From: Methanolobus sp. WCC5
Lineage (GTDB): Archaea > Halobacteriota > Methanosarcinia > Methanosarcinales > Methanosarcinaceae
Assembly: GCF_045690325.1 (NCBI RefSeq)
Contig: NZ_CP146981.1
Span: 1,044,853 to 1,108,852 of the forward strand
Direction of reading: 5' to 3'
Length of the DNA: 64,000 bases
The first letter of the stretch is position 1; every line of letters starts with the position of its first letter. Positions 43,038-63,065 of the stretch are shown here, one piece after another. A program made the position numbers and the translations under genes. Under the pieces are notes generated by a model. It was not told the origin of the DNA. It searched no databases and saw only the letters and a list, made by a program, of their open reading frames with translations.

Positions 43038-43898
43038 TTACCTGAATTGTTCCATTGCAAGATTGAAGAAATTAGATGCCTCGGTAGTAATAACTACTTT
43101 CATGATCCTTCCTTCATCCTCAACCGTTACGTTGTAGAGCAGATCCCTTTCACTACTTGTAGCCTCAAGATCAGATATTGCAGCAACAGTGGTATCTGCA
43201 GGATCAACGAATATCTCGGTCCGCGAATAATTACCGTCACCCATATTTCTGAATTCCAGATAGTGCAGTTCTGCAACTTCATCAGAAGAGCTTACCCATT
43301 GATATTCGGCACCAGGTACCACATAAACCATTATTTCGTTGAAATCTGTCGATGCCTGGCCGGTTCCTGAATTTACATCTATGACCTTTTCAAGGGTGTT
43401 CCTGTCACCTAACAGGGTAGGGGTCCCTATTATATTATATATATTGGTTCCCCTCTGCAACAGAGAATAACCATTATACATATCTGCGACTGCATAATCA
43501 AAGTTAACGACCTCAGGTGTCAGTATATGTGCCTCGAATCCGAAATTTGATGAAACATCATATGCAGAGAACCTTTTTACCATCAACGTATTGTAATAAG
43601 CATAAAGATCCGTTATATTGTAATCCTGAAGTGGTGTCCCGTAGGTTCTGGAATAATCCACATATATGGCATTAGATACTCCTTGCGGACTGAACGCAAG
43701 ACCGTCTGAAAGCGAATTCATCTCAGCGCTAAAGTGTGTTCCGCTTATGACCTCAAAACCCGGTGCATCCTCAGGATCTGTAACATCTCCGTCTTTGCTG
43801 GAACTGTTCCCACTGCCGCCGAAAAAAAGTGCCATGACCGATGTCACCATGATTAGCGCCAGAAAAATCCCTATTATCCTAACATATTTCTGTTCCAT
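43038..43898 (-). CDS. Hypothetical secreted/membrane-anchored protein
   Basis: 286 aa with an N-terminal signal/TM helix (IIGIFLALIMVTSVMALFF). No family recognised. Confidence 0.5.
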   Translation of the reverse strand: MEQKYVRIIGIFLALIMVTSVMALFFGGSGNSSSKDGDVTDPEDAPGFEVISGTHFSAEMNSLSDGLAFSPQGVSNAIYVDYSRTYGTPLQDYNITDLYAYYNTLMVKRFSAYDVSSNFGFEAHILTPEVVNFDYAVADMYNGYSLLQRGTNIYNIIGTPTLLGDRNTLEKVIDVNSGTGQASTDFNEIMVYVVPGAEYQWVSSSDEVAELHYLEFRNMGDGNYSRTEIFVDPADTTVAAISDLEATSSERDLLYNVTVEDEGRIMKVVITTEASNFFNLAMEQFR

Positions 43899-46553: not shown

Positions 46554-47147
46554 TCAATTGCTTGTGTTTTTGACTATCTTTTCTATCCACAGCAGTACGA
46601 ACATCACTATGAGGAAAATGAACGTTACCTGCCATAGATAATAATGAACATAACTGAAAAGTGCAGGGTACACCATTCCCACAAAGGAAAGGAATACCAA
46701 CCTCAGCATGTTAACTATTATCATTGCCGGTACCCCCAGTGCTATGCCAAGGAACTTGTTACGCAGTGTGGTAGGATATGCAAGCACGCATCCGGCATAG
46801 ACCAGCAGCTCATACATTCCGGTACACTCATCTATTATCATCACGGAAAAACCATTCATATAAACAGACTGGCCATAGGATGAACTATCCACACCAAAAA
46901 CAGACAATACTCCTGAAAGAGCATTGGCAGTCATGGTACTCAGAAAAGTGAACCTATCCTGAAAGAAAACGTATACTCCTGTAAAAAGTACAATATAGAA
47001 CAGATATGTTCCCAGGAACTTTATTACACGCCTGTTCCTTTCAAGAAAAGGAAAAAAGTCATACCTGCTGAAGAAAGAATTACTATCTGCCTTTTCTATA
47101 GTTTTATGTTTCCTGGCACCTTTTAAAGACCTGCTTTTTTTAGCCAT
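46554..47147 (-). CDS. Exosortase/archaeosortase-family membrane protein (short form)
   Basis: 197 aa, polytopic. Contains a C-x-G motif (IIDECTGMYE) and an N-x-x-R motif (VNMLRLVF), which as I recall are the conserved Cys/Arg signature of the family. Lies next to two proteins ending in VPxxxP-type sorting signals. Confidence 0.5.
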   Translation of the reverse strand: MAKKSRSLKGARKHKTIEKADSNSFFSRYDFFPFLERNRRVIKFLGTYLFYIVLFTGVYVFFQDRFTFLSTMTANALSGVLSVFGVDSSSYGQSVYMNGFSVMIIDECTGMYELLVYAGCVLAYPTTLRNKFLGIALGVPAMIIVNMLRLVFLSFVGMVYPALFSYVHYYLWQVTFIFLIVMFVLLWIEKIVKNTSN

Positions 47148-47189: not shown

Positions 47190-48770
47190 TTAGTCACGGC
47201 GTCTAAGCGTGACAATTCCAAGTGCAGCCAGTATTCCTATCATCATCACCATACCCAGTGGCGTCAGCAATGGAACAACCGGCTGGCAGTGGTAATGGCT
47301 TGGATCCTCGTCGTTTACAGTGTTACCTGCATCGTCCTCTCCTGTCACCGTAGCAATGTTCTTGTAGAGCGGGACACATTCCTCAACTGTGGCAGTGACC
47401 TCATAGGTCCAGGTCTCCCCAACATCCAGAATGTCATCAGCATTCATGCTCTTTGAGATGATATTGGCAGCAGGGATAACTCCAAGCTTGTCATCGACAA
47501 CAACAATGTCCTTCAAAGGCACATTTCCTGTATTGGTGACAAAGTACTCCCATGTTACAGTTTCACCCACATCTATCTTAGGGCCGCTTGGGAAATCAGC
47601 ATCAAAGCCATTTGTATGCTTCTCTATATCGATATCCGGCTCACACCTTACTATATAGTGGCTTGGATCACTGTCTGTTACGGGAATTCCCAGCCAGTCC
47701 GCATCGACCTCACCGATGTTGGCATACTGTCCGCAGTCTGCTATACCTGTCATCTGGTACACCCACAGCTCACCTACATCCAGAACATCGTCATTGTTAA
47801 TGCTCTTGGAGATTATGTTTGCAGCCGGTACGCCTCCAAGCTTGTTGTCAGTAACTACCACGTTGCTAAGTGGCACATTCCCAACGTTGGTTACTCTGTA
47901 TGTCCAGGTAACTGCCTGTCCGGGAGCAAGGCTTGGACCTGTAGGTGTATCTGCATCAAAACCATTGGTCCATTTCTCTATATCTACATCCGGATTGGGT
48001 ATGGTCACAAATACATCTGCAATATCCTCACCTATAAGGCCACCGGTTATGGGGTCCCTATCGTCTTGTGCACCTGCTGTAACACGTATTAGTAGTGTTG
48101 CACCTGGGCTTAGATCAAAACTATTACCAAGATTTAGAATCTTGATCTCATAGACAAGTCCGTTCGCTGCATCTACATCAGCTGCTGTCAAAGTGGTTGT
48201 TCCGTCCCCCACATCCGCAACAGTCCAGTCATTGTTTTGAATGCTTATTCTTGTCGCTTTTGAGCCTTGCATTATCCTTATGTTGAAGAACTCATCTGCG
48301 CCAATACCATCCACATTATTTGGAGTGATTGCTCCCCTTGTATCGGAGAATTCCAGGCTATTATAAGGATCTCCATCCCCATCAAGATCACCGGGCAGAC
48401 CATATACAGTACAGAGACCGTATAGTGTATCAGTCATAAAATCATAGCGTGCATATATTCCTTCTATATCATAGCCACTTTCATCTGGCCCTACTGTAGC
48501 CATGTTCTCATTGAAACCAGTACCTGAGTCGCTCACCCGATCTTCATCGTACCACATCCCATTCTGGAAAATCACCATTTTGTCCCCGAATGGACCATCA
48601 GGGTTATAGGTTGATCCTTCCGTCTGACCATAACTCCAGTTCCCGTTCCACTCCCCAACTCCACGCACCCCATCAACGGTTATTGCCATGGCACTGGGGG
48701 TGGCGAACAAAACTATCAATATTGCGAACATTACATGTAATATGTTCATTATTTTCAACTCCCATCTCAT
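47190..48770 (-). CDS. Secreted surface protein: conserved N-terminal head domain, DUF11-type repeats and VPxxxP-type C-terminal sorting signal
   Basis: Signal peptide. Head domain about 80% identical to that of the giant neighbour. Three DUF11-like modules (D.D.EK.TNG.DAD…TW.Y.VTNTGNV). C-terminus is VVPLLTPLG followed by a TM helix and RRRD. Confidence 0.75.
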   Translation of the reverse strand: MRWELKIMNILHVMFAILIVLFATPSAMAITVDGVRGVGEWNGNWSYGQTEGSTYNPDGPFGDKMVIFQNGMWYDEDRVSDSGTGFNENMATVGPDESGYDIEGIYARYDFMTDTLYGLCTVYGLPGDLDGDGDPYNSLEFSDTRGAITPNNVDGIGADEFFNIRIMQGSKATRISIQNNDWTVADVGDGTTTLTAADVDAANGLVYEIKILNLGNSFDLSPGATLLIRVTAGAQDDRDPITGGLIGEDIADVFVTIPNPDVDIEKWTNGFDADTPTGPSLAPGQAVTWTYRVTNVGNVPLSNVVVTDNKLGGVPAANIISKSINNDDVLDVGELWVYQMTGIADCGQYANIGEVDADWLGIPVTDSDPSHYIVRCEPDIDIEKHTNGFDADFPSGPKIDVGETVTWEYFVTNTGNVPLKDIVVVDDKLGVIPAANIISKSMNADDILDVGETWTYEVTATVEECVPLYKNIATVTGEDDAGNTVNDEDPSHYHCQPVVPLLTPLGMVMMIGILAALGIVTLRRRD

Positions 48771-49001: not shown

Positions 49002-52000
49002 TTAGTCCCTCCTTCTTAGATAGAACGCACCTGCAAGTCCAAGGACTGAGATCAATATCATCATTCCGACAGGACTTAGCAGTGGAACGACCGGCTGGCA
49101 GTAGTAGTGAGCCACATCCTCATCTGATACCTCAGTTCCTTCAAACTCACCTGTGACAATTGCAGTGTTCTTATGCTGGGGCACGCATTCGGTTACAGTG
49201 CCCTTCAGTTCGTAGGTCCACACCTCGCCTGGGTCCAGTATGTCGTCATTGTTTATGCTCTTTGAAATGATACTAGATGCAGGTATCGTACCAAGTTTGT
49301 CATCAACAACAACTACATCATCCAGAGGGACATTACCGGTGTTCTTAACAACGAATTTCCAGGTAATGCTATCGCCCACTGCAAGGAGGATACCAGGTGC
49401 CTGATCAGCATCATTTCCATTGATATATTTCTCAATGTCAATGTCTGGTACACAGTTCACTCTGTAGTGGCTTGGGTCAGAGTCTGTTACCGGAATGGAA
49501 CCAAAGTGACCTACTACATCGCCCACATTTGCGTACTGACCACATTCTGCTGTTCCTGTTGACTGATAGATCCAGACCTCACCTGGCATGAGTGTATCGT
49601 CGCCATTGCCTTTGTCAACTATGTTGCTTATAGTTCCAAGCTGGTCATCTGTAACGGTTATGTTTGTCAGATGTACATTACCTGTATTCCTGACAACATA
49701 TTCCCAGGTAACTTCCGCACCATAGGCAAGTGTAGGTCCGGGTGCACTGTCAGCATCGAAACCATTTGTCGACTTCTCTATATCGATATTTGGTGCACAA
49801 ACCACATTATAATGGCTTGGATCACTGTCATTGACTGTGGTAGATCCATAATCACCTGTCACCGTACCAAGGTTAGCATATTGTCCGCATGAAGCACTGC
49901 CCGTAGCCTGGTAAGTCCAAGTCTCACCGACGGAAAGTATGCCGTCACCATCTCCGTTGTTCACAATGTTACCAATCACACCCAGTTTATCGTCGGTTAC
50001 AACGATATTGCTGAGGTTGACATTTCCAGTGTTGGTCACAACATAGGTCCAGGTAACAGCATCACCAATTCCCAGTGATGGACCAGGTGCACTGTCAGCA
50101 TCCTCACCATTGGTTGCCTTCTCGATATCAATTGAGGGAGAAGCACCGAAGTAGTGGCTTGGATCCTCGTCAGTGACAGTGATACCGTTGTAATCACCTG
50201 TAACATTACCGATATTGGCGTACTGGCCTGCAACTGCAACACCGTTGGCTGAGACCTCGGTGCTCGCACCGACTGCAAGGTCACCGATAACTGAGATAAC
50301 CCCAAGGATATTATCAGTTACAGTGACGTTGACAAGATCAACATTACCCGTATTGGTGACGTTATAAGTCCAGGTGACACTGTCTCCCACAGGGATGAAA
50401 GGTCCGGTAGGATCATCAGCATCCGCGCCATTGGTTGCCTTCTCAATATCAATTGATGGAGAGGCACCGAAGTAGTGGCTTGGATCCTCATCAGTGACCG
50501 TGATACCGTTGTAATCACCTGTTACATTACCGATGTTGGCGTACTGGCCTGCAACTGCAACACCGTTGGCTGAGACCTCAGTGCTCGCACCGACTGCAAG
50601 GTCACCGATAACTGAGATAAGTCCAAGAATATTATCAGTTACAGTGACGTTGACAAGATCAACATTACCCGTATTGGTGACGTTATAAGTCCAGGTGACA
50701 CTGTCTCCCACAGGGATGAAAGGTCCGGTAGGATCATCAGCATCCGCGCCATTGGTTGCCTTCTCAATATCAATTGATGGAGAGGCACCGAAGTAGTGGC
50801 TTGGATCCTCATCAGTGACCGTGATACCGTTGTAATCACCTGTTACATTACCGATGTTGGCGTACTGGCCTGCAACTGCAACACCGTTGGCTGAGACCTC
50901 AGTGCTCGCACCGACTGCAAGGTCACCGATAACTGAGATAAGTCCAAGAATATTATCAGTTACAGTGACGTTGACAAGATCAACATTACCCGTATTGGTG
51001 ACGTTATAAGTCCAGGTGACACTGTCTCCCACAGGGATGAAAGGTCCGGTAGGATCATCAGCATCCGCGCCATTGGTTGCCTTCTCAATATCAATTGATG
51101 GAGAGGCACCGAAGTAGTGGCTTGGATCCTCATCAGTGACCGTGATACCGTTGTAATCACCTGTTACATTACCGATGTTGGCGTACTGGCCTGCAACTGC
51201 AACACCGTTGGCTGAGACCTCAGTGCTCGCACCAACTGCAAGGTCACCTATCACAGATATCTCACCAAGAATATTATCAGTTACAGTGACGTTGACAAGA
51301 TCAACATTACCCGTATTGGTGACGTTATACGTCCAGGTGACACTGTCTCCCACAGGGATGAAAGGTCCGGTAGGATCATCAGCATCCTCACCGTTGGTGG
51401 CCTTCTCGATATCAATTGAGGGAGAGGCACCGAAGTAGTGGCTTGGATCCTCGTCAGTGACAGTGATACCGTTGTAATCACCTGTAACATTACCGATGTT
51501 GGCGTACTGGCCTACAACTGCAACACCGTTGGCTGACACCTCGGTACTCTCACCGGCTGCAAGGTCACCGATAACTGAGATGACTCCAAGGATATTGTCA
51601 GTTACAGTGACGTTGACAAGATCAACATTACCGGTATTGGTGACGTTATAAGTCCAGGTGACACTGTCTCCCACAGGAATGAAAGGTCCGGTTGGAATGT
51701 CAGCATCCTCACCATTGGTGGCCTTCTCAATATCAATTGAGGGAGAGGCACCGAAGTAGTGGCTTGGATCCTCATCAGTGACAGTGATACCGTTGTAATC
51801 ACCTGTAACATTACCGATGTTGGCATACTGGCCTGCAACTGCAACACCGTTGGCTGACACCTCGGTACTCTCACCGGCTGCAAGGTCACCTATCACAGAT
51901 ATCTCACCAAGAAGGTTGTCAGTTACAGTGACGTTGACAAGATCAACATTACCCGTATTGGTGACGTTATAAGTCCAGGTGACACTGTCTCCTACAGGAA

Positions 52001-55000
52001 TGAAAGGTCCGGTAGGACTGTCAGCATCCTCGCCATTGGTGGCCTTCTCAATATCAATTGAAGGAGAGGCACCGAAGTAGTGGCTTGGATCCTCATCAGT
52101 GACCGTGATACCGTTGTAATCACCTGTAACATTACCGATGTTGGCGTACTGGCCTGCAACTGCAATGCCGTTGGCTGACACTTCAGTGCTCGCACCGACC
52201 GCAAGGTCACCTATCACAGATATCTCACCAAGAAGGTTGTCAGTTACAGTGACGTTGACAAGATCAACATTACCCGTATTGGTGACGTTATAAGTCCAGG
52301 TGACACTGTCTCCTACAGGAATGAAAGGTCCGGTAGGACTGTCAGCATCCTCGCCATTGGTGGCCTTCTCAATATCAATTGAAGGAGAGGCACCGAAGTA
52401 GTGGCTTGGATCCTCATCAGTGACCGTGATACCGTTGTAATCACCTGTAACATTACCGATGTTGGCGTACTGGCCTGCAACTGCAACTCCGTTGGCTGAG
52501 ACCTCGGTGCTCGCACCAACTGCAAGGTCACCTATCACAGATATCTCACCAAGGATATTGTCAGTTACAGTGACGTTGACAAGATCAACATTACCCGTAT
52601 TGGTGACGTTATACGTCCAGGTAACACTGTCTCCCACAGGAATGAAAGGTCCGGTTGGAATGTCAGCATCCTCACCATTGGTTGCCTTCTCGATATCAAT
52701 TGAGGGAGAGGCACCGAAGTAATGGCTCGGATCCTCATCAGTGACCGTGATACCGTTGTAATCACCTGTCACATTACCGATATTGGCGTACTGGCCTGCT
52801 GCTGCAATGCCGTTGGCTGACACTTCAGTGCTCGCACCGACTGCAAGGTCACCGATAACAGAGATCACACCAAGGATATTGTCAGTTACAGTGACGTTGA
52901 CAAGATCAACATTACCCGTATTGGTGACGTTATACGTCCAGGTAACACTGTCTCCCACAGGGATGAAAGGTCCGGTAGGATCATCAGCATCCTCACCATT
53001 GGTTGTCTTCTCAATATCAATTGATGGAGAGGCACCGAAGTAGTGGCTCGGATCCTCATCAGTGACCGTGATACCGTTGTAATCACCTGTTACATTACCG
53101 ATATTGGCGTACTGGCCTGCAACTGCAACACCGTTGGCTGACACCTCGGTACTCTCACCGGCTGCAAGGTCACCGATAACTGAGATAACTCCAAGGATAT
53201 TGTCAGTTACAGTGACGTTGACAAGATCAACATTACCGGTATTGGTGACGTTATAAGTCCAGGTGACACTGTCTCCCACAGGGATGAAAGGTCCGGTAGG
53301 ATCGTCAGCATCCTCACCATTGGTAGCCTTCTCGATATCAATTGAGGGAGAGGCACCGAAGTAGTGGCTTGGATCCTCATCAGTGACCGTGATACCGTTG
53401 TAATCACCTGTAACATTACCGATGTTGGCGTACTGGCCTGCAACTGCAACTCCGTTGGCTGAGACCTCAGTGCTCGCACCGACTGCAAGGTCACCGATAA
53501 CTGAGATGACTCCAAGGATATTGTCAGTTACAGTGACGTTGACAAGATCAACATTACCGGTATTGGTGACGTTATACGTCCAGGTGACACTGTCTCCCAC
53601 AGGGATGAAAGGTCCGGTTGGATCGTCAGCATCCTCGCCGTTTGTGGCTTTCTCGATATCAATTGATGGACATTCGCCGAAGTAGTGGCTTGGGTCCTCA
53701 TCGGTTACAATTACCGCTTTATATTCCCCGGTAACTGTAGCGTTGTTGGCATACTGACCGCACTCGGCAATTCCTGTAGCTTCATAAACCCAGATCTCAT
53801 CAACATCAAGAATAGCATCTTCGTTGACATCACCACTCTGGTAAACAGGTATGACACCCTGATCATCTATCACTGATATATTGCTGAGCGGCACATTACC
53901 GGTGTTGTTCACCACATAGGTCCACGTGACGGTAGCACCCTGCAGGATACCAGGACCTGGTGCTTCATCAGCATCCTCACCATTGGTTGCCTTCTCAATA
54001 TCAATGTCAGGACATTCACCGAAGTAGTGGCTTGGATCCGTGTCAAATACTGGGATCACGTCGAAGAAACCAACTGCTGTTGCGTTGTTCACATACTGAC
54101 CACATTCAGCGATGCCTGTAGCTTCAAAGATCCATGATTCACCTATCGAAAGGATATCGTCCCCATCACCCTGATCAATGATATTGGTAATAGGACCAAG
54201 TTTGTCATCAATGACACTTATATTTAGCAGAGGAACATCACCTGTGTTTGTTACAACATAAGTCCACGTGACATTCTCACCTTCGGGTATCCCCGGGCCT
54301 GGTGCATTATCTGCATCCTCGCCATTGGTTGATTTCTCAAGATCAATGTCAGGACTTGGTATGGTTACAAATACATCTGCAATATCTTCTCCTATAAGAC
54401 CACCAGTTATGGGATCCCTATCGTCTTGTGCACCTGCTGTAACACGTACAATTAATGTTGCACCCGGACTTATATCGAAATTATTGTTAATACCATTAAT
54501 TTTTATCTCATAGACAAACTGATCAAGATCACCCTCATAATCGTTAATTGGATGATATGCAATACCGCATGCTGCATCTATATCTGTTGCTGTCAGAGTG
54601 GTTGTCCCATCCCCCACATCCACAACATCCCAGGCATTATTTTGAATACTTATTCTTGTGGCCTTATCACCTTGTATTAGCCTGATGTTAAAGAACTCAT
54701 CTGCACCAATACCATCCACATTATTTGGAGTGATTGCCCCCCTGGTATCGGAGAATTCCACGCTATTATATGGATCCCCATCCCCGTCAAGATCACCGGG
54801 AAGACCATATACCGTACACAAACCATATAGTGTATCGGTCATAAAATCATAACGCGCATATATTCCTTTAATATCATAGCCACTTTCATAAGGTCCTACA
54901 GTAGCCATATTCTCATTGAAACCAGTTCCTGAATCCCTCATCGGATCTTCATCAGACCAGTTCCCCGCTTGAAAAATCACCATTTTGTCCCCGAAAGGAC

Positions 55001-55199
55001 CATTTTGTTTATAGTCTGTACCGTTGAACTGACCATAAGCCCAACTTTCGTTCCATTCATCAACACTTCTTATACCATCTATAGTAACAGCTACAGATGT
55101 TCCAGAAATTGTAATCAATATCAACGTAATAACAACAAGTAAACTATATTTTGTCATGTTTGCCCCACCCTTTATAACTAAAAGAGGTATTCTTACCAA
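49002..55199 (-). CDS. Giant (2065 aa) surface protein with about 16 DUF11-type domains, including 11 near-identical 107-aa tandem units, and a VPxxxP-type C-terminal sorting signal
   Basis: Signal peptide and paralogous head domain. Repeats begin SPSIDIEKATNGEDAD…TWTYNVTNTGNV…DPSHYFGA. C-terminus is VVPLLSPVG followed by a TM helix and RRRD. One uninterrupted ORF of 6.2 kb. Confidence 0.85.
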   Translation of the reverse strand: MVRIPLLVIKGGANMTKYSLLVVITLILITISGTSVAVTIDGIRSVDEWNESWAYGQFNGTDYKQNGPFGDKMVIFQAGNWSDEDPMRDSGTGFNENMATVGPYESGYDIKGIYARYDFMTDTLYGLCTVYGLPGDLDGDGDPYNSVEFSDTRGAITPNNVDGIGADEFFNIRLIQGDKATRISIQNNAWDVVDVGDGTTTLTATDIDAACGIAYHPINDYEGDLDQFVYEIKINGINNNFDISPGATLIVRVTAGAQDDRDPITGGLIGEDIADVFVTIPSPDIDLEKSTNGEDADNAPGPGIPEGENVTWTYVVTNTGDVPLLNISVIDDKLGPITNIIDQGDGDDILSIGESWIFEATGIAECGQYVNNATAVGFFDVIPVFDTDPSHYFGECPDIDIEKATNGEDADEAPGPGILQGATVTWTYVVNNTGNVPLSNISVIDDQGVIPVYQSGDVNEDAILDVDEIWVYEATGIAECGQYANNATVTGEYKAVIVTDEDPSHYFGECPSIDIEKATNGEDADDPTGPFIPVGDSVTWTYNVTNTGNVDLVNVTVTDNILGVISVIGDLAVGASTEVSANGVAVAGQYANIGNVTGDYNGITVTDEDPSHYFGASPSIDIEKATNGEDADDPTGPFIPVGDSVTWTYNVTNTGNVDLVNVTVTDNILGVISVIGDLAAGESTEVSANGVAVAGQYANIGNVTGDYNGITVTDEDPSHYFGASPSIDIEKTTNGEDADDPTGPFIPVGDSVTWTYNVTNTGNVDLVNVTVTDNILGVISVIGDLAVGASTEVSANGIAAAGQYANIGNVTGDYNGITVTDEDPSHYFGASPSIDIEKATNGEDADIPTGPFIPVGDSVTWTYNVTNTGNVDLVNVTVTDNILGEISVIGDLAVGASTEVSANGVAVAGQYANIGNVTGDYNGITVTDEDPSHYFGASPSIDIEKATNGEDADSPTGPFIPVGDSVTWTYNVTNTGNVDLVNVTVTDNLLGEISVIGDLAVGASTEVSANGIAVAGQYANIGNVTGDYNGITVTDEDPSHYFGASPSIDIEKATNGEDADSPTGPFIPVGDSVTWTYNVTNTGNVDLVNVTVTDNLLGEISVIGDLAAGESTEVSANGVAVAGQYANIGNVTGDYNGITVTDEDPSHYFGASPSIDIEKATNGEDADIPTGPFIPVGDSVTWTYNVTNTGNVDLVNVTVTDNILGVISVIGDLAAGESTEVSANGVAVVGQYANIGNVTGDYNGITVTDEDPSHYFGASPSIDIEKATNGEDADDPTGPFIPVGDSVTWTYNVTNTGNVDLVNVTVTDNILGEISVIGDLAVGASTEVSANGVAVAGQYANIGNVTGDYNGITVTDEDPSHYFGASPSIDIEKATNGADADDPTGPFIPVGDSVTWTYNVTNTGNVDLVNVTVTDNILGLISVIGDLAVGASTEVSANGVAVAGQYANIGNVTGDYNGITVTDEDPSHYFGASPSIDIEKATNGADADDPTGPFIPVGDSVTWTYNVTNTGNVDLVNVTVTDNILGLISVIGDLAVGASTEVSANGVAVAGQYANIGNVTGDYNGITVTDEDPSHYFGASPSIDIEKATNGADADDPTGPFIPVGDSVTWTYNVTNTGNVDLVNVTVTDNILGVISVIGDLAVGASTEVSANGVAVAGQYANIGNVTGDYNGITVTDEDPSHYFGASPSIDIEKATNGEDADSAPGPSLGIGDAVTWTYVVTNTGNVNLSNIVVTDDKLGVIGNIVNNGDGDGILSVGETWTYQATGSASCGQYANLGTVTGDYGSTTVNDSDPSHYNVVCAPNIDIEKSTNGFDADSAPGPTLAYGAEVTWEYVVRNTGNVHLTNITVTDDQLGTISNIVDKGNGDDTLMPGEVWIYQSTGTAECGQYANVGDVVGHFGSIPVTDSDPSHYRVNCVPDIDIEKYINGNDADQAPGILLAVGDSITWKFVVKNTGNVPLDDVVVVDDKLGTIPASSIISKSINNDDILDPGEVWTYELKGTVTECVPQHKNTAIVTGEFEGTEVSDEDVAHYYCQPVVPLLSPVGMMILISVLGLAGAFYLRRRD
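50140..53672. repeat. Tandem array of about 11 near-identical 321-bp coding repeats (approximate bounds)
   Basis: The period of 321 bp is shown by identical antisense ORFs at 50318, 50639 and 50960, and by the repeating protein units. Several consecutive units appear 100% identical. Confidence 0.85.
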
Positions 55200-55403
55200 G
55201 AAATAAATTGTATACGTATGTATTTATTAGTACAACAAACAATCATAAGTAGGAATATTAAGTAACATAGATACAGTACTTCACTAATTTTTGAATCCAG
55301 CTGTTTAAACTTATATTGAAATCGGATGAAAATAGAAATTGATTCATGTGAAAGGCCTTTAAATGAATAAAAGGGAACTGAAAATCTATGGACATGGTCT
55401 ATA

Positions 55404-56495
55404 CGACAATTATAGTTAATAACTTAACTTTTCTAACTTATTATCCAGAAACTTCTCAATCCATTTTCTTGCGAAGCTAAGCTTTGATGAACAACTAATA
55501 AACGTCTCAGCAATCAGATTCCTCATATGATCAAGATCTTTGACAAAATTGCAGGAAATAACTCTTTTAACGCTCTTCCATATGAATTCAATAGGATTCA
55601 AGTCTGGTGAATACGGAGGCAAATAGACCAATTCGATATCATTTGCCATTGCAAAATCTACTGTGTATTTTGCCCGATGTGACCTGAAGTTGTCAAGAAT
55701 GATAACTATTCTCTTTCCAATGTTGCTGTTTTTGATAGTTGATAGAAACGAACATACGTCCTCTTTAGTTGAATGTTCTTTAAAATCGATTACTGAAGTA
55801 CCATTCAATGCATAAAATCCAAACGAGTTTGCTTTAATTCTAGTTGAATTTTTGAACATAACGGGTTTATTGAAAGACCATAAACGAACTGTATTTGATG
55901 TGGTTTGTGGGGATGATTCATCAAGAAAACCGATTACGTAATCATTATTGATTACTGGTAAGTTTTTTTTAAACGATCTTCTGCATCATCTGGTCTTCGA
56001 TAATCATGCGCATAGGGTTTGGCATGATACATGCCAAACTTCTTCAAGATAACCAATATTTGCTTAATGGTGTATTGAACCGTAAATTCATTATGGATAA
56101 GTTCCTGAACTTCTTTTGTAGACCAATCATTTCTTTCATGCAGCATAGCCTTTAGTTCTTCTTTTTGGTCATCAGTGAGTTTTGAAGGACAACCTCCTGA
56201 AAACCTGGGAATCAATCCTTCATACCCGTCTTGATTCCATCGTTCTTGCCATTGATATGCAACTGGTGTAGATATGCCAACAAGTTTAGCTGCTTCGTTA
56301 ACAGAAGCACCTTCATAACGATGTTTAATAAAATACAAACGTTGTAGGACTCGTGTATCTTTCTCTAATGACTTGATACGTTTAAGCAATTCTTCTGATG
56401 ATAGATGATGCTCTATCGTAATTTGTTCAGGTCTAGCCATAAAGTATAGTTGCATTTGATTAATAATAAATGTTTGGTTAAGAACTATAATTCCG
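55404..56495. mobile_element. IS630/Tc1-mariner-family insertion sequence, about 1.09 kb (approximate ends)
   Basis: Imperfect terminal inverted repeats CGACAATTATAGTT..CTTAAC (55404-55428) and GTTAAG..AACTATAATTCCG (56477-56495). Encodes an HTH N-terminal part and a DDE_3 C-terminal part of a transposase. Confidence 0.7.
55416..56455 (-). CDS. IS630-family transposase in two frames (orfA 55952-56455 HTH; orfB 55416-55859 plus upstream extension, DDE), probably joined by a -1 frameshift
   Basis: orfA ends …DRLKKTYQ* across an A8 run (55963-55970, T8 on the + strand). The -1 frame is open from just upstream of the A-run (…NLPVINNDYVIGFLDESSPQTT…) into orfB, which carries LDNFRSHRA … LPPYSPDLNPIEFIWK. 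The fused length is about 340 aa. Confidence 0.7.
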
Positions 56496-56684
56496 ATTAT
56501 AATTCATCCGCTTGTTTCTCTATTTAAAAGCAGCAAATAAATTCTTATTATCATCTTCTTGTAAAATTGAATTATAGTACAACATTTTTAAACGTGGGCA
56601 ATTGACTAATACAATCAATCATTAATTTAAAAATGAGGATTTATTCTGTTCTGTGGGATAGAAACAGATAAAAGGAGATATTAT

Positions 56685-57467
56685 ATGAGATACAAACTAT
56701 TAAAAAGGGCTCTAGTGCTCCTTCTAGGAGTAGCACTTGCAATGGCATCTGGATGTGCCAACATTACAGATTCACAAAAGACATCTGGGGACTTAATAGA
56801 TAATGATATGGAAGAATCATCAAGTGAATCTAACCCCTATTCTGCCATAATACCAACTGATTTTGCAATTCCGATTGAAAATCCGTATTTTCCCTTAAAC
56901 ATTGGTACAATCTACATATATGATGGTGAATCAGATGAAAAAGATATTAAAGTTGAAATATATGTCAGTGACCAGACAAAGGAAATAATGGGTGTGGAGA
57001 CTACAGTTGTCAGACAACAAAAATGGAAAGATGGAGAGCTTATTGAACACACTCTGGACTGGTATGCCAATGATAACAAAGGAAATGTTTGGTATTTCGG
57101 TTCAGATTCCAAAGAATACGATTATGATGCAGTTGATATAGTGAGCACAGTAGCTTCCTGGGAGGCGGGGGTTGATGGTGCAGAACCAAGAATCTTTATG
57201 GGAAATTATTCTCAGGTCGGAGATGTTTACCGCCAGGAATACTACGAACGAGGAGGTGAAAAAGAATTAGAAGTGCTAAGTATCGATGCGCCTGTTTCCG
57301 TTGAATATGGGCCATTTGAAAATTGTATACAAATAAAGGAATTGATTCCATTTAACCCCGAAATAGAAAAATACAAATATTATGCCAGTGGCGTGGGGCT
57401 TGTTCTAGAAGAGTCTGTTATGGAAGGAAATGATAGAATTGAACTTGCAGAAATAATAAATAGATAA
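56685..57467 (+). CDS. Secreted hypothetical protein with lipoprotein-like signal peptide
   Basis: The MRYKLLKRALVLLLGVALAMASGC signal has a Cys directly after the hydrophobic core. GGAGAT SD upstream. No family recognised. Confidence 0.5.
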   Translation: MRYKLLKRALVLLLGVALAMASGCANITDSQKTSGDLIDNDMEESSSESNPYSAIIPTDFAIPIENPYFPLNIGTIYIYDGESDEKDIKVEIYVSDQTKEIMGVETTVVRQQKWKDGELIEHTLDWYANDNKGNVWYFGSDSKEYDYDAVDIVSTVASWEAGVDGAEPRIFMGNYSQVGDVYRQEYYERGGEKELEVLSIDAPVSVEYGPFENCIQIKELIPFNPEIEKYKYYASGVGLVLEESVMEGNDRIELAEIINR

Positions 57468-57573
57468 AGGAAGGCATTTTCCTTTATTTTATGTTTAAAC
57501 TCGTCTAACATTGAATGATTTAAACAGAGTTGTATCCAAAGCAGCTATACAACCAATAAAACAATTTATAATC

Positions 57574-58161
57574 TCATTCAAATTTCAGATCAATTTCACC
57601 GGCCAGTATATCTTCAATAATCTTTAAAGATTCATTACTGATCTTTGTTCTTTTTCCTTTGTCACGCTTTTCCATATTATTGTAATCAAAGAAATGCTTG
57701 CACACACCATGGGCTTTGTCCAGAGGATCATTGTCCTGCAGAAAAACAACACAACCTTCCAGACCGATCACCTTTTGAACATAATTTAATGCATAAGATA
57801 CCCCATAGTGGCATCCTACACCGGGAAGAAAATATTTGTATCCTTCATTCTTTTTCTGCTTAAGCCACGGGAAAAGATTGGAATCACTATCAATTATGAA
57901 TATCCTGTCCTTTGTGAATCCTCTTTCCTTCAGGATGTCTATCATGTCACCAAGAGAACAGGGCACATTACAGGTTCTGTCCTCAAGTTTCAAACAGCTC
58001 TGATTCTTCCTTGACTTTTGTTTGCATGATACCGGACAAGCATAATATCCCAAAGGTTTGGCACAGTAAGGGAGAAAAGCAATACAACTGTCAAGCTCAT
58101 CTGTGACTATAGTTTGTATATCCAGGGATGGGGATGAAATAGCTATACTGCAGTTAAGCAA
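57574..58161 (-). CDS. Cys-rich hypothetical protein, paralog 1 (possibly DUF116-like)
   Basis: Shares FLPYCAKP.G…CNVPCSLG…IFIID.DSNLFPWL…GVCK… with paralog 2. Homology continues in-frame upstream to about 58300 without an ATG. Confidence 0.5.
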   Translation of the reverse strand: MLNCSIAISSPSLDIQTIVTDELDSCIAFLPYCAKPLGYYACPVSCKQKSRKNQSCLKLEDRTCNVPCSLGDMIDILKERGFTKDRIFIIDSDSNLFPWLKQKKNEGYKYFLPGVGCHYGVSYALNYVQKVIGLEGCVVFLQDNDPLDKAHGVCKHFFDYNNMEKRDKGKRTKISNESLKIIEDILAGEIDLKFE

Positions 58162-58421
58162 ACTTTTATTGATATGATTGTAACTTAGTTTTTTCTCGAT
58201 CAGCTTTTTGTTTAACGAATACGGAACAAATGAGTATAGCTTCTCTAAAATCGATACTCTCGTTATTAACCCCCCTTGAATGCTCTTTCAGCAAACACTT
58301 ATTCCACAAACAACTATAGCTGAATTCTCGTTCTAAAAGCTTGGCGTTAAAACAAAATGCGGCATTATATGTCTTTTTTTCCAGAAATCGTGAAATATAA
58401 AAACATAATCGTAAAATAAAC

Positions 58422-58615
58422 GTAACTATTCAGCCTACCCATTTCAGCCGATTGATGCGGATTTCATCAAATTCAAGGTGTTGAGTCCTAAATTAATTCA
58501 AAACAAAAAAAGCAATCAATCGGCACATTTAAAATAAATTAGTCATACAATATTTACATATCATTTTTTTAACACAACGGCGACAGGTGTTGATTCTATC
58601 AGGCTGAATAGTTAC
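58422..58615. repeat. Nested perfect inverted repeats: outer 15 bp (GTAACTATTCAGCCT / AGGCTGAATAGTTAC), inner 10 bp (GCCGATTGAT / ATCAATCGGC)
   Basis: Outer arms lie at 58422-58436 and 58601-58615. Inner arms lie at 58447-58456 and 58514-58523. The element sits in the AT-rich spacer between the two Cys-rich paralogs. Confidence 0.6.
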
Positions 58616-58687
58616 AAATAAACAAAATAAATAAACAGAAGAAAAAATGGTTAAATGAAAATTAATACCAGCTATAAAAATAGATAA

Positions 58688-59422
58688 TCACATACTGGAA
58701 GGGACTTCATTTGAATGCGGGGATTTATGAGGTACTTCCTCAACGCTTTCGTTTTGATAATTACCTGAAAGGATCCGGTCCATCAATATTATCGTCTCTT
58801 TGTGAACCTTGGTGCGTTTTCCCTTATCTATGCCCTCCATTCCAAGATAATCGTTCATGCATTTGCAGACGCCGTTTTCTTTGTCATCAGGGCAAAAATC
58901 ATCTACAAAGGCTATGCACCCTTTGTAGCCAAGCTTCTTACCTATGTAATCAATGGCATAGGATACACCGTATTTGCATCCGGTACCCGGCATAAAATAT
59001 TCATAGCCTTCCTTCCTTTTCTGCACAAGCCATGGGAAAAGATTGGAATCCCTGTCTATTATGAAAATCTGTTCCTTTTTAAAACCATGTTTTGTGAGAA
59101 CATCCACCATCTCACCAAGAGAACAGGGCACATTACACTTGCCACCGGATACCTTGACACATTTCTGGTTCTTCCTGTTATTGATCTTGTCCGATACAGG
59201 ACACTCATGTTCCCCCATCGGTTTGGCACAATATGGCAAAAAGGCAACACATTTATCAAGATCATCTCTTACTACTTTGTTTATATCAAGGGAATGAGGA
59301 TATAAGGCAAGGTGATTTTTTATAAGCAGATCATCCTGTTTTTTGAATTTGCACTTCCATCTTACTATCTTTTGATGGATCGAATAAGGAACCAATCCAT
59401 ATATTAATTCTCGGGTCAGCAT
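58688..59422 (-). CDS. Cys-rich hypothetical protein, paralog 2 (possibly DUF116-like)
   Basis: 244 aa, about 55% identical to paralog 1 over the Cys-rich core. Has an N-terminal extension of about 50 aa. Confidence 0.5.
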   Translation of the reverse strand: MLTRELIYGLVPYSIHQKIVRWKCKFKKQDDLLIKNHLALYPHSLDINKVVRDDLDKCVAFLPYCAKPMGEHECPVSDKINNRKNQKCVKVSGGKCNVPCSLGEMVDVLTKHGFKKEQIFIIDRDSNLFPWLVQKRKEGYEYFMPGTGCKYGVSYAIDYIGKKLGYKGCIAFVDDFCPDDKENGVCKCMNDYLGMEGIDKGKRTKVHKETIILMDRILSGNYQNESVEEVPHKSPHSNEVPSSM

Positions 59423-59739
59423 TTTTTTCCTCCATTGACGTTTGGGGCTGTACTTCTTTGGAGTTGTCCAGAGTAAACCTATGTCCCAATTTTTTAACTT
59501 TATCTCATAGGTAGCTTGGTCATCCGTATAAATATCATGACCCTATATACATTTATCCATGTACATAAACTATACATAGAATAAATACTGTGAACATGCT
59601 TATAATTAATTAAGACAGATACTGTACAAAATGCCTGTATTTTATGTACAAGTTTCAGTATTGAACAAAATATTTTTGTATATTAAACCGATTTACAAAA
59701 TTATATTCAGAGTCAGGTACATATAAACAAAGGAAAGGA

Positions 59740-59937
59740 CTAAAGACCCAGTTCTTCTGCAATCTCCTGGAACTCTTTTCCCTTTGCAGTTGTTACATAC
59801 AGATTTCCTTTATGTTCTATCAGTCCTTTTTCCTCCAGCATTGTAAGATACCTGTTAACCATGTCAAAATTCAGATTTGCATTGTAAACTATGTGTGTCT
59901 TTTTAGCCCCCTCCAATGCAGCTTTTAATATCTCCAC
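59740..59937 (-). CDS. Mini winged-HTH protein (paralog of 46118-46306)
   Basis: 65 aa, …ALEGAKKTHIVYNANLNFDMVNRYLTMLEEKGLIE…. GTG start. The same 20-nt upstream element as the first copy. Confidence 0.5.
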   Translation of the reverse strand: MEILKAALEGAKKTHIVYNANLNFDMVNRYLTMLEEKGLIEHKGNLYVTTAKGKEFQEIAEELGL

Positions 59938-60062
59938 ACTAATGGCAGTTCTGCTTCTCCTAATATGATCACATCCATAGCTACAGTCTTTTCTACCACG
60001 CCAGGTACCCCACCATGAATAAAAGTTGGAAAGAGTCCATTCAATCCAACATCAATACACTG

Positions 60063-60793: not shown

Positions 60794-63043
60794 TCAGGCC
60801 AATATGCACTCCTCGTCTACGAATACATAGTATCCTTCGTATACGTTCATGCTAAAGACATCGGTACCTACCTGGTTACCATTGATGACGCCTTCCACTC
60901 CGTTGTATCCCACATAGGCATACTCACTTGCAGAAGTTACCCAGGGTCCTTTGACCTTGATGTAGCTGTCATCGATGGTTGCAAGCCCGATCTCTGCAGA
61001 TAGCTCGACCTTTGCATTGTGGCCAATGGCGTTCCATCCCGGATAAAGCATCAGCGATGGTGGCGTGGATGGCACCTTCGGTGTCAGATAGTCCTCAAGA
61101 ATGACAACCTCTCCACTCATGTTGTTGTGTACCCAGTATGCCTTCAATGGCTCGAAGGTGGTTGGTACAACCATCATTCCAACAGATGCATCATCATAGA
61201 ACACATAATCAACTTCTGTGTCGGTAAAGTCCTGGAGCACAAAGTCGATACTTGCATTCTCAAGTGTTTCTGGGAACGATATAAGGTTCCATCCCGGCAG
61301 GAGTATTATTCCTTCTGGGTTGTACACCTCAACACATACGATGTGGAATGCTGAATCCTGTCCGTCATCCAATGTTGCCTTGATCAGGTACTGGCCATCA
61401 GGTACACTGGTTGTGTCAAGCACAGCAGTCCAGCCATCAGAGCCGTCGTTGTCTGTTGCGAATACTGTCCAGACACCGCCTACCTCATCGTCAATACAGT
61501 TGCCATTGGTATCTGCAAAGACAGCAAAGGTTGCGGTAAGGATGTCATCCTGTCCGGAATTGTCCACAACTTCAACTATCTGTGTCTTTGAGACAACATC
61601 ACCATCTGCATGGGAGACGATCTCCGGACCTGGCACAACGTTTGGTACTGTGGAAACTTCAACAGTTCCATCGGTGACCACAACTCCCGGAATTGCTGCA
61701 TTGGCCTGGTCCTGAAGAACCACGTTCATCAGGTCAAGGTCGTAGACACCGTCTGCTGCACCTGCCTTCACTTCGAACTCAATGGTTAACATTGTTCCGG
61801 CTGTTGGCGCGTAGACCCCACCTGTGGCTGCAATACCATAGGTTATGGTACCTGCACCGTCGTCACCACTTCCTGGTGCTTCCAGTGCCCCGGCTCCAAG
61901 CAGGTTCTCATTGGTTATGCTGTTAACCATGAGTACTGAAGCATCGTAGCCCAGCTGCAGGCTCACAGCACGCAGGTTCTTGTCGGCTGAATCGACCATC
62001 ACTTCAACCTGGAATGTCTCACCGATATCCACAGGTCCGCTTGCAGCTGGAGATACCATTACCTCCGGCATTACAACAGGACCGTCAGCTACCTGTACGG
62101 TAGCATCAGTGACAACAACTCCGGCGATTGCCGTGTTGGTCTCGTCCATAAGTCCCACATTGTCCAGATCAAGGTTGTAGATGCCATTTGCAGCACCAGC
62201 CTTCACTTCGAATTCGATGGTCAGCATAGTACCGGCCTGCGGCGTGTAAGCCCCTGCGGTGGAGGCAATACCATATGTAATGGTACCTGCACCGTCGTCA
62301 CCACTGCCTGGTGCTACAAGTGCCCCTGCTCCAAGCAGGTTCTCGTTGGTCACACCATTTACCATGAGAACTGCAGCATCGTATTTCAGCTGCAGGTTCA
62401 CAGCACGGAGGTTCTCATCAGCAGAATCCACCTCTACCTCTACCTGGAACGTATCTCCCGGAGCAACCGGACCGCTCACTGCAGGAGTGATCTTCACTTC
62501 AGGATCATCGGTTGGCGGTATTACATCATCACCAACTTTTACTGTTCCGTCCATGACAGCCACCCCGGCAATAACCGTGCTGGTCTGGTCTAAGAGTACC
62601 ACATTCATTAGGTCAAGGTCATAGATACCATCAGCAGCCCCGGCTTTCACCTCGAAATCGATGGTTATCATGGTACCTGCTACTGGTGCATATGGACCGG
62701 ATGTGGCTGCAATACCATAGGTAATGGTTCCTGCCCCATCGTCACCACTGGCTGGCGCTACCAGAGCACCGGCACCAAGCAGGTTGTTGTTGGTTATGCT
62801 ATTGACCTGAAGTACCGCCGGATCATAGTCCAGCTGCAGGTTCACGGCACGTAGGTCAGAAGCATCGGAATCCACCAATATGCTGACCTGGAACGTATCA
62901 CCTGCATCGTACTCATTGGTTTGTGGATCTACTGACACCGATGGTGCAGCCGCTGCAAGTCCTACGCCTACCATGAAACATGCACAAAATATTAAAAGGA
63001 TGGCAGCAGATCCTGCCATTCCTTTCCATGTTACTTTTGTCAT
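60794..63043 (-). CDS. Secreted scaffoldin-like protein with three tandem cohesin-like domains plus a C-terminal domain
   Basis: Signal peptide MTKVTWKGMAGSAAILLIFCACFMVGVGLAAAA, with a GGTG SD before the ATG at 63043. Three modules of about 125-130 aa each (…GDTFQV.V.VDS…LRAVNLQL.YD..VL.VN…GTITYGIA…) match the cohesin pattern. Confidence 0.65.
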   Translation of the reverse strand: MTKVTWKGMAGSAAILLIFCACFMVGVGLAAAAPSVSVDPQTNEYDAGDTFQVSILVDSDASDLRAVNLQLDYDPAVLQVNSITNNNLLGAGALVAPASGDDGAGTITYGIAATSGPYAPVAGTMITIDFEVKAGAADGIYDLDLMNVVLLDQTSTVIAGVAVMDGTVKVGDDVIPPTDDPEVKITPAVSGPVAPGDTFQVEVEVDSADENLRAVNLQLKYDAAVLMVNGVTNENLLGAGALVAPGSGDDGAGTITYGIASTAGAYTPQAGTMLTIEFEVKAGAANGIYNLDLDNVGLMDETNTAIAGVVVTDATVQVADGPVVMPEVMVSPAASGPVDIGETFQVEVMVDSADKNLRAVSLQLGYDASVLMVNSITNENLLGAGALEAPGSGDDGAGTITYGIAATGGVYAPTAGTMLTIEFEVKAGAADGVYDLDLMNVVLQDQANAAIPGVVVTDGTVEVSTVPNVVPGPEIVSHADGDVVSKTQIVEVVDNSGQDDILTATFAVFADTNGNCIDDEVGGVWTVFATDNDGSDGWTAVLDTTSVPDGQYLIKATLDDGQDSAFHIVCVEVYNPEGIILLPGWNLISFPETLENASIDFVLQDFTDTEVDYVFYDDASVGMMVVPTTFEPLKAYWVHNNMSGEVVILEDYLTPKVPSTPPSLMLYPGWNAIGHNAKVELSAEIGLATIDDSYIKVKGPWVTSASEYAYVGYNGVEGVINGNQVGTDVFSMNVYEGYYVFVDEECILA

Positions 63044-63065
63044 GATTTCACCTCTTACATCAGGC

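What the first reader, a model, noticed from the sequence alone, without database searches (positions are those of the whole stretch)
49002..55199. 2065-aa surface protein built from eleven near-identical 321-bp tandem repeats
Eleven consecutive 107-aa DUF11-type units differ by only 0-4 residues. The three C-terminal-most identical units are 100% identical at the DNA level over at least 200 bp, as shown by identical antisense ORFs at 50318, 50639 and 50960. This implies very recent expansion or concerted evolution. It also implies high potential for recombinational length variation (antigenic or adhesive phase variation). Short-read assemblies could collapse or misassemble this region.
Basis: seen in the sequence. 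Interest (0 to 1): 0.6.

Follow-up and report, generated by a model that had tools for sequence, protein, structure and literature searches.

The report
Repeat-stalked archaeal surface protein with dedicated sortase
This is a real, giant cell-surface protein gene of a Methanolobus methanogen whose long stalk is built from eleven near-identical Ig-like repeats, an archaeal counterpart of the variable-length "fibrillar adhesins" known from bacteria and so a new example of a known kind.

Summary
A 321-bp unit is repeated 11.2 times with no indels (50094-53702) inside one ORF on the minus strand. The likely start is the ATG at 55157, giving 2051 aa.

The protein has five parts: a signal peptide, a rare ~245-aa head domain, 16 DUF7507/CLIPPER_2 (DUF11-related) Ig-like units, a VPLLSP motif with a transmembrane helix, and a terminal RRRD. 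A 526-aa paralog follows (same head, two units), then archaeosortase B. This three-gene cassette is conserved across Methanolobus.

- **Concerted evolution:** Edge units are orthologous between species. Internal units cluster by genome and differ in number (8-13).
- **Age of the array:** "Very recent expansion" is only locally true. Units 11 and 12 are identical, within a 926-bp perfectly periodic tract. Across the array mean dS is 0.25 and dN/dS is 0.08, with a gene-conversion mosaic.
- **Unit type:** This genome amplified a 107-aa Cys-free unit. Relatives amplify a 114-aa two-Cys unit.
- **Assembly:** Three related draft assemblies break inside this array.
- **Phase variation:** Unit gain or loss is always in frame, so expect length variation, not on/off switching.

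Verdict: a new member of a known kind, of moderate-to-low interest.

The parts
49002..55157 (-). Giant surface-protein gene (2051 aa from the ATG at 55157; the maximal ORF extends to a TTG at 55199)
   Evidence: Pfam DUF7507 x16, E 1.2e-159
55086..55157 (-). Signal peptide (MTKYSLLVVITLILITISGTSVAV)
   Evidence: Read from the sequence; the same N-terminus occurs in orthologues
54348..55085 (-). Head domain, ~245 aa, with no Pfam family and an invariant YGLPGDLDGDG motif
   Evidence: Only 28 of 1.84e9 representatives match, always at the N-terminus; 5 hits; alignment A1; the AF2 model is only partly confident
53664..54347 (-). Stalk units 1-2 (114 aa each, two Cys each), orthologous to units in other Methanolobus
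50133..53663 (-). Eleven tandem 321-bp / 107-aa Cys-free CLIPPER_2 units (units 3-13)
   Evidence: TRF; unit tables; dS/dN and mosaic tests; AF2 pLDDT 97.4 beta-sandwich
50308..51233 (-). Perfectly periodic 926-bp tract, the footprint of the most recent duplication or conversion; includes identical units 11 and 12
   Evidence: 605-bp exact repeat at offset 321 and 284 bp identical in three copies; 0 differences between units 11 and 12
49098..50132 (-). Stalk units 14-16 (115 aa, Cys-containing), 93-94% identical to the orthologous units of the closest relative
49002..49097 (-). C-terminal sorting signal (QPVVPLLSP + hydrophobic helix + RRRD) and stop codon
   Evidence: TIGR04143 at 27.1 bits on the isolated tail, cutoff 30; 19.2 bits in the full protein; the motif is conserved in all orthologues
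47190..48770 (-). 526-aa paralog: same head (81% aa identity), two CLIPPER_2 units and a VPLLTP C-terminal signal
46554..47147 (-). Archaeosortase B (ArtB), the predicted processing enzyme for both proteins
   Evidence: TIGR04144 at 189.2 bits, cutoff 150; DECTG, NMLR and VHYY motifs in the sequence

Best explanation
The gene encodes a ~207-kDa, very acidic, Sec-exported cell-surface protein of a Methanolobus species. It is built like a bacterial fibrillar adhesin or "Periscope" protein.

Architecture (shown):
- A rare N-terminal head domain sits on a rod of 16 Ig-like CLIPPER_2 (DUF7507) domains.
- The C-terminus carries a VPxxxP motif, a transmembrane helix and a basic tail.
- Archaeosortase B, encoded two genes downstream, is predicted to cleave this tail and anchor the protein to the membrane.
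- Each stalk domain keeps the Lys/Asp/Asn triad of the family, so each is probably locked by an autocatalytic intramolecular isopeptide bond (inferred).

Evolution of the central 11 units (shown):
- They are kept alike by purifying selection and by intragenic homologous recombination (unequal crossing-over and gene conversion).
- The same recombination adds or removes whole 107-aa units in frame. This alters how far the head projects, not whether the protein is made.
- In this lineage the amplified unit is a shorter, Cys-free variant. Relatives amplify a two-Cys unit.

Inferred steps: isopeptide formation, ArtB processing and lipid anchoring, the rod shape, and an adhesive or ligand-binding role for the head.
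For: - **Array and ORF:**
- **Domain family:** PF24346 with 16 stretches, E 1.2e-159, and TIGR01451 with 16 stretches.
- **Triad:** K5, D47 and N80 are invariant in a 22-sequence unit alignment. My residue count on the sequences places the Asn at N87 in the 114-aa units. Spacing is +42/+82 there and +42/+75 in the 107-aa units. The DUF7507 reference triad is K72/D112/N152, i.e. +40/+80 (PMC12617251).
- **Sortase:** ArtB scores above its curated cutoff. Within the window only the giant and its paralog carry a VPxxxP C-terminus.
- **Synteny:** The order giant, small paralog, ArtB is conserved in six Methanolobus genomes.
- **Concerted evolution and copy number:**
- **Selection and recombination:** dS 0.25 and dN/dS 0.08. 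280 of 561 site pairs fail the four-gamete test. Neighbouring sites are more compatible than shuffled ones, with none of 2000 permutations reaching the observed value.
- **Recent duplication:** the 926-bp perfectly periodic tract.
- **Periscope concept:** high DNA identity between repeats drives length variation by homologous recombination (PMC8201768, PMC9704523).
Against: - No experimental data exist for any member of this cassette. The head domain has no known ligand and was poorly modelled (pLDDT below 50 for residues 14-94).
- The fold match to CLIPPER is no better than to many generic Ig-like domains such as transglutaminase, complement MG and CARDB.
- A profile search of PDB sequences did not reach 9IFR.
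- The VPxxxP-CTERM HMM scores are below the curated cutoff: 27.1 and 11.4 bits against 30.
- Copy-number variation was seen only between species, not within this species. No same-species contig spanning the array was found.
Confidence: 0.72

Rival explanations
1. Assembly artefact: the number or order of the eleven units is wrong because near-identical repeats were collapsed, expanded or shuffled during assembly.
For: Three related draft assemblies end inside the homologous array (L001, L005, L007). The M. vulcani N-terminal fragment is annotated as partial. The 926-bp perfectly periodic tract cannot be counted with reads shorter than about 1 kb, so the number of unit-11/12-type copies is uncertain if short reads were used.
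Against: Apart from units 11 and 12, every unit has its own combination of the 51 variable sites. Exact repeats beyond offset 642 are 122 bp or shorter, so most junctions can be resolved. The reading frame is intact across 6.2 kb. Arrays of similar size occur on a complete chromosome (L004, ZRKC3) and on a 3.37-Mb contig (L002).
Confidence: 0.1
2. The array is simply a very recent burst of tandem duplication from a single unit that has not yet had time to diverge. Selection and ongoing homogenisation play no role.
For: Units 11 and 12 are identical and unit 13 differs from them by only 10 nt. In relative L002 the array has dS 0.009, so such bursts do occur in this gene family.
Against: Mean inter-unit dS is 0.25 (max 0.37), against 0.31-0.55 between this genome and its closest relative at orthologous units. 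dN/dS is 0.08. About 35 of the 51 variable columns are synonymous. Variants are shared in blocks among non-adjacent units, with half of the site pairs incompatible with a single tree.
Confidence: 0.08
3. It is not an adhesin. The protein is instead a structural envelope component or spacer: S-layer-associated, a cell-cell aggregation matrix, or a barrier or decoy against viruses. The head would then be a fast-evolving target, not a ligand binder.
For: The head's second half is only 40-55% identical between this genome and its closest relative, while the stalk and anchor are 90-93% identical. The protein carries 45 N-x-S/T sequons and has pI 4.05. DUF11 proteins of Methanothermobacter stabilise cell aggregates, and some archaeal DUF11 proteins are proposed S-layer porins (PMC12617251).
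Against: The architecture of N-terminal unique domain, repeat rod and C-terminal anchor is that of fibrillar adhesins. Nothing distinguishes adhesion from these alternatives computationally. They overlap with the main explanation on everything except the role of the head.
Confidence: 0.25

Closest known systems
CLIPPER_2 (DUF7507, PF24346) / CLIPPER (DUF11, PF01345) isopeptide-bond stalk domains of fibrillar adhesins (PMC12617251; PDB 9IFR)
   Same: All 16 units match PF24346. The Lys/Asp/Asn triad is conserved with the reference spacing. The units form a compact beta-sandwich, are tandemly arrayed between an N-terminal unique domain and a C-terminal sorting signal, and are found with archaeosortase signals in archaea.
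   Different: The characterised example is a DUF11 domain from Acinetobacter with an OmpA-like anchor and a disulfide. Here the eleven amplified units have no Cys and a 7-residue shorter loop. No isopeptide bond has been shown for any DUF7507 domain or any archaeal protein.
Periscope Proteins (SasG, Aap, Rib, Sgo_0707 SHIRT; PMC8201768, PMC9704523)
   Same: This is a surface-anchored monomer with an N-terminal functional domain and a stalk of tandem folded domains. The repeats are 91-100% identical at the DNA level, repeat number differs between relatives, and homologous recombination is the likely mechanism. Short reads fail to assemble it.
   Different: The class was defined in bacteria, and neither paper mentions archaea. 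Membership requires length variation between closely related strains, which could not be tested here. This array is less homogeneous at silent sites than classical examples. The genome also hard-wires a short (2-unit) paralog with the same head next to the long one.
Archaeosortase B / VPXXXP-CTERM system (TIGR04144 / TIGR04143; Haft et al. 2012, cited in PMC9723798 and PMC12617251)
   Same: ArtB is present above its cutoff. Both adjacent proteins end in VPxxxP, a hydrophobic helix and a basic cluster. The system occurs in Methanosarcinales.
   Different: The sorting-signal HMM scores fall below the curated cutoff. ArtB function and its substrates have never been tested experimentally (my knowledge; only ArtA has been studied).

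Membership tests
DUF7507 / CLIPPER_2 (PF24346) | Significant match to the family HMM above the gathering score | tested here: met
   520.7 bits against a cutoff of 27, with 16 matched stretches
DUF7507 / CLIPPER_2 (PF24346) | Conserved Lys-Asp-Asn isopeptide triad (reference K72/D112/N152) | tested here: met
   K5, D47 and N80 are invariant in alignment A2. My residue count on the sequences puts the Asn at N87 in 114-aa units and shows the triad in all 16 units. Spacing agrees with PMC12617251.
DUF7507 / CLIPPER_2 (PF24346) | CnaA-like Ig beta-sandwich fold | tested here: inconclusive
DUF7507 / CLIPPER_2 (PF24346) | Actual formation of the intramolecular isopeptide bond | not testable with these tools
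   Needs mass spectrometry or crystallography.
VPXXXP-CTERM / archaeosortase B substrates | Cognate archaeosortase B present | tested here: met
   TIGR04144 at 189.2 bits against a cutoff of 150, at 46554..47147, two genes downstream
VPXXXP-CTERM / archaeosortase B substrates | C-terminal tripartite signal matching TIGR04143 above the cutoff | tested here: inconclusive
   27.1 bits (giant tail) and 11.4 bits (paralog tail) against a cutoff of 30. The motif VP[LV]L[ST]P + TM + RRR[DEN] is visibly conserved in all orthologues.
VPXXXP-CTERM / archaeosortase B substrates | Cleavage and anchoring by ArtB | not testable with these tools
   Needs genetics and proteomics.
Periscope Proteins | Surface-attached protein with a stalk of tandem folded domains of high DNA identity | tested here: met
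   11 units, 94% matches, 0 indels; folded beta-sandwich
Periscope Proteins | Repeat-number variation between closely related strains or within a population | tested here: inconclusive
   Variation was seen between species: 8, 13, 13 and 11 internal units. No second complete allele from the same species was found.
Periscope Proteins | Rod-like extended stalk | not tested
   Only a single-unit model was made, so the inter-domain geometry is not modelled.

The most novel reading that the evidence does not exclude
This may be the first archaeal Periscope-type system, with two features not described for the bacterial class.
1. A conserved three-gene module places a long-stalk and a short-stalk version of the same head domain next to a dedicated archaeosortase B. 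The two heads are co-homogenised: 81% identical to each other, but at most 60% identical to any other genome's.
2. The amplified stalk module switches between lineages. Here a Cys-free, short-loop unit replaced the two-Cys unit that relatives amplify, so the stalk's chemistry is turned over as well as its length.
Probability: 0.3. Interest if true: 0.5.

Novelty: new member of a known kind. Interest (0 to 1): 0.3.

Why it matters
Fibrillar adhesins and Periscope proteins have been studied almost only in bacterial pathogens. This locus is a clean archaeal example with three useful properties.
- It has a dedicated, uncharacterised sortase (ArtB) and only two obvious substrates, which makes it a compact genetic system for finding out what ArtB does.
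- It offers a natural comparison of stalk modules with and without the Cys pair.
- It shows that the gene is systematically broken in short-read Methanolobus assemblies, so surface-protein inventories of methanogens are probably undercounted.

The general phenomenon of concerted evolution of repeat stalks is well known.

Tried and rejected
- **PDB sequence searches:** Searches with two units, the head, and a 22-sequence unit profile gave only chance-level hits such as Kv1.3, antibody light chains and nsp9.
- **Foldseek on the head + unit 1 model:** It returned only generic tandem Ig-like matches with TM about 0.2. The head fold stays unassigned.
- **Spurious Pfam hits on the full protein:** Translin, Polysacc_synt_C, DUF1573, HYDIN and similar families matched with 0 independent stretches. 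I treat them as score summed over repeats.
- **Antisense ORFs:** The 86-87-aa ORFs on the + strand inside the array (51175, 52459, 52783, 53422 and others) recur with the repeat period. They are by-products of the repeat, not genes.
- **Rfam and tRNA scans:** No hits in the window.
- **Exact-sequence look-ups:** ArtB and the giant are not on record. SufC is found only on short metagenome contigs that stop before the cassette.
- **Metagenome scan with the head:** No relatives found.
- **Metagenome scan with the unit:** Only units of 68% identity or less, so no same-species allele was available to test copy-number variation.
- **On/off phase variation:** Rejected. Units are multiples of 3 nt, there are no indels, and there is no simple-sequence tract.
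- **Haft et al. 2012 (PMC3256604):** Could not be read because it is not held.
Full report
**1. The observation**

The window holds one long ORF on the minus strand, 49002..55199 (2065 aa from a TTG). Tandem Repeats Finder reports a single array at 50094-53702 with period 321, 11.2 copies, 94% matches, no indels and score 6049.

Cutting the protein at the IDIEK motif gives 16 units:
- Two units of 114 aa.
- Eleven units of exactly 107 aa (window 53663..50133).
- Three units of 115 aa.

Two details need correcting.
- Pairwise, the eleven units differ by 0-8 residues and by 0-32 of 321 nucleotides. Against the consensus they differ by 0-5 residues, counted by me from the column table.
- Only units 11 and 12 are identical over a whole unit. 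Unit 13 differs from them by 10 nt and 1 aa.

A 284-bp stretch occurs three times (50308, 50629, 50950). A 605-bp exact repeat at offset 321 makes 50308-51233 (926 bp) perfectly periodic.

The real start is probably the ATG at 55157. It has GGTGGGG 6-12 nt upstream, it opens a signal peptide (MTKYSLLVVITLILITISGTSVAV), and orthologues begin at the same place.

**2. What the protein is**

- **Domains:** Pfam assigns all 16 units to DUF7507 (PF24346; 520.7 bits, E 1.2e-159). Weaker overlapping hits go to DUF11, DUF7617 and CARDB. NCBIfam gives the DUF11-type repeat TIGR01451 sixteen times.
- **C-terminus:** The tail reads QPVVPLLSPVGMMILISVLGLAGAFYLRRRD, that is a VPxxxP motif, a hydrophobic helix and a basic cluster. 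The VPXXXP-CTERM model scores 27.1 bits on the isolated tail against a cutoff of 30.
- **Properties:** The mature protein is about 207 kDa with pI 4.05 and 45 N-x-S/T sequons, three per amplified unit. All 12 cysteines lie outside the amplified units.
- **Head:** The first ~245 mature residues match no Pfam family and no PDB sequence.

**3. Neighbourhood**

Directly downstream on the same strand lies a 526-aa paralog (47190..48770). It has the same head, two DUF7507 units and a VPLLTP C-terminal signal. Next comes archaeosortase B (46554..47147), with TIGR04144 at 189.2 bits against a cutoff of 150. Its sequence shows DECTG, NMLR and VHYY motifs. SufC and SufBD follow.

No other ORF in the window carries this type of C-terminus. 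Upstream of the giant is an IS630-like element.

**4. Organism and relatives**

ArtB-anchored loci from one genome per species place the window in Methanolobus. The best match is 85% identity, to MAG M17C-73-03 (L001). The source genome itself is not in that collection.

The order giant, small paralog, ArtB is conserved in L001-L005 and L007. Complete giants are:

| Locus | Source | Length (aa) | Units |
|---|---|---|---|
| L002 | 3.37-Mb contig | 2250 | 17 |
| L003 | M. bombayensis | 2241 | 17 |
| L004 | strain ZRKC3, complete chromosome | 1670 | 12 |

In L001, L005 (M. vulcani) and L007 (M. psychrotolerans) the contig ends inside the repeat array. The M. vulcani N-terminal piece appears elsewhere as a "partial" protein.

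**5. Concerted evolution, and a switch of unit type**

In relatives the array has a 342-bp period:

| Locus | Copies | % matches |
|---|---|---|
| L002 | 13.8 | 98 |
| L003 | 14.0 | 84 |
| L004 | 8.8 | 93 |

That period encodes a 114-aa unit with two Cys (..AECGQY.. and ..GECPD). The window instead amplifies a 107-aa Cys-free unit (..VAGQY....GASPS) that lacks a 7-residue acidic loop.

A tree of all 75 units shows two patterns.
- The first unit and the last three units group by position across species. For example, window units 14-16 are 93-94% identical to L001's.
- Internal units group by genome.

The window's eleven units form a long-branched clade whose best outside match is 67%. The first 19 residues of L001's contig end in GASPS, so the closest relative shares this unit type.

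No closer copy of the unit exists elsewhere:
- Nothing above 66% full-length identity in 5.8 billion proteins.
- Nothing above 68% identity in the metagenome contigs.

However, Cys-free or short-loop units do occur in other members of the head-bearing family (P0059, P0063). The variant is therefore not unique in kind.

**6. How old are the copies?**

Among the eleven units, mean dS is 0.25 (max 0.37), mean dN is 0.019 and the ratio is 0.08. Orthologous flanking units of the window and L001 have dS 0.31-0.55. Most copies have therefore diverged at silent sites for a time approaching the split from the nearest known relative, while the protein sequence is held by purifying selection.

Other arrays differ:

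| Locus | Mean dS between internal units |
|---|---|
| L002 | 0.009 (truly recent homogenisation) |
| L004 | 0.29 |
| L003 | 0.54 |

The 51 variable columns form a mosaic. Blocks such as codons 52-56 or 61-64 are shared among non-adjacent units. 280 of 561 informative site pairs fail the four-gamete test. Neighbouring sites are more compatible than shuffled ones, with 0 of 2000 permutations reaching the observed value. Adjacent units are more alike than units 3-6 apart, at 16.5 against about 24 nt differences.

This is the signature of repeated short gene-conversion and unequal-crossover events. The 926-bp periodic tract is the latest one.

All units are multiples of 3 nt with no indels. Such events therefore change length, not reading frame.

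**7. Structure and probable chemistry**

One 107-aa unit, with a 36-row alignment, folds as an 8-strand beta-sandwich at pLDDT 97.4.
- Foldseek gives only generic Ig-like hits.

A 2025 survey (PMC12617251) makes four relevant points:
- It renamed DUF11 as CLIPPER and DUF7507 as CLIPPER_2.
- It showed an intramolecular Lys-Asn isopeptide bond crystallographically for a DUF11 domain, and predicted one for DUF7507 with triad K72/D112/N152.
- It described these domains as stalks of fibrillar adhesins in bacteria and archaea, in archaea often with ArtA/B/C sorting signals.
- It noted that disulfides accompany the isopeptide in about 35% of CLIPPER_2 domains.

In my unit alignment K5, D47 and N80 are invariant. 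My residue count on the sequences places the Asn at N87 in the 114-aa units. The spacing fits the reference. I could not measure distances because model coordinates are not exposed. Bond formation is therefore inferred.

**8. The head**

A full HMMER pass over 1.84 billion representatives found only 28 matches, 17 of them at E of 1e-10 or better. In the 17 strong matches (E of 1e-10 or better) the aligned region begins within the first 45 residues. The full-length examples I read carry DUF7507 units and a VPxxxP-type tail. So the head, the CLIPPER_2 stalk and the ArtB signal form one small family.

The AF2 model of head plus unit 1 is confident for the unit (about 90) but not for head residues 14-94. 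Its fold search was uninformative.

The head evolves fast and in concert with its neighbour:
- The giant and small heads of the window are 81% identical to each other (85-95% DNA identity centrally), but only 47-60% identical to any other genome's head.
- Between the window's and L001's small paralogs, stalk and anchor are 90-93% identical, while head residues ~121-270 drop to 40-55%.

**9. Comparison with known systems**

The architecture and the DNA-level repeat identity fit the Periscope Protein concept (PMC8201768, PMC9704523). In that concept, homologous recombination between near-identical repeats varies stalk length.
- Neither paper mentions archaea. A search for both terms together found only incidental co-mentions.
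- The defining feature, length variation among close strains, could not be tested here.
- The ArtB/VPXXXP system is annotated but, to my knowledge, uncharacterised experimentally. It is mentioned only in genome surveys.

**10. Verdict**

- The array is mostly not young. It is maintained by purifying selection with patchy conversion.
- The expected variation is in length, not in phase.

It is a new member of known kinds: a CLIPPER_2 fibrillar adhesin and an ArtB substrate. Three secondary points are modestly new:
- The lineage-specific switch to a Cys-free unit.
- The long/short paralog pair with co-converted heads.
- The systematic assembly breaks in Methanolobus drafts.

Interest: 0.3.

Noticed in passing
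window 55408-56492 (-): An IS630-family insertion sequence lies about 250 bp upstream of the giant gene's start. It has 34-nt imperfect inverted repeats at 55408-55441 and 56459-56492. Its transposase is split into two ORFs, 55952..56455 (HTH part) and 55416..55859 (DDE part). This may be a frameshifted or decayed copy, and it could affect the giant gene's promoter region.
   Followed up: partly
window 60794-63088 (-) and 63066-63845 (-): A 764-aa protein with three cohesin domains (PF00963, E 1.9e-41) lies next to a 259-aa protein with a type I dockerin (PF00404, 24.1 bits, just above its cutoff). This looks like an archaeal cohesin-dockerin pair a few kb from the ArtB cassette, which would make the region rich in surface-protein genes.
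   Followed up: no
window ~54000-60000: A low-GC stretch (0.355-0.373, against 0.42-0.49 elsewhere) covers the head-domain end of the giant gene, the IS630 element and three ORFs with no Pfam or NCBIfam match: 56685..57467 (+), 57574..58161 (-) and 58688..59422 (-). It may be a variable or acquired segment.
   Followed up: partly
window 54398-54938 vs 48050-48560: The head domains of the giant and of the 526-aa paralog share 85-95% DNA identity in their central parts. The same region of the paralog is only 43-54% identical to the closest relative's (L001). This points to gene conversion between the two adjacent paralogs, or joint replacement of a hypervariable head segment.
   Followed up: partly
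L003 (M. bombayensis) 2554-7355: The M. bombayensis array interleaves two distinct 114-aa unit subtypes: an NLTNIQV...DQGDGD type and a VPLSNVVV...YQSGDTNVDG type. The second is orthologous to window unit 2 and to the L007 units. Arrays can therefore be homogenised as mixed two-type patterns.
   Followed up: partly
window 43038-43898 (-): A 286-aa protein downstream of SufBD has only a weak halo_sig_pep hit. The identical-neighbourhood metagenome contig L093 carries a weak AF_2048_N Pfam note for it. Its function is unknown.
   Followed up: no
L093 / L094 (JGI metagenomes 3300042275 and 3300042276): SufC identical to the window's occurs on short metagenome contigs, so the same or a very close population is present in those samples. 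One contig ends exactly at the SufC start, just short of the ArtB cassette.
   Followed up: no
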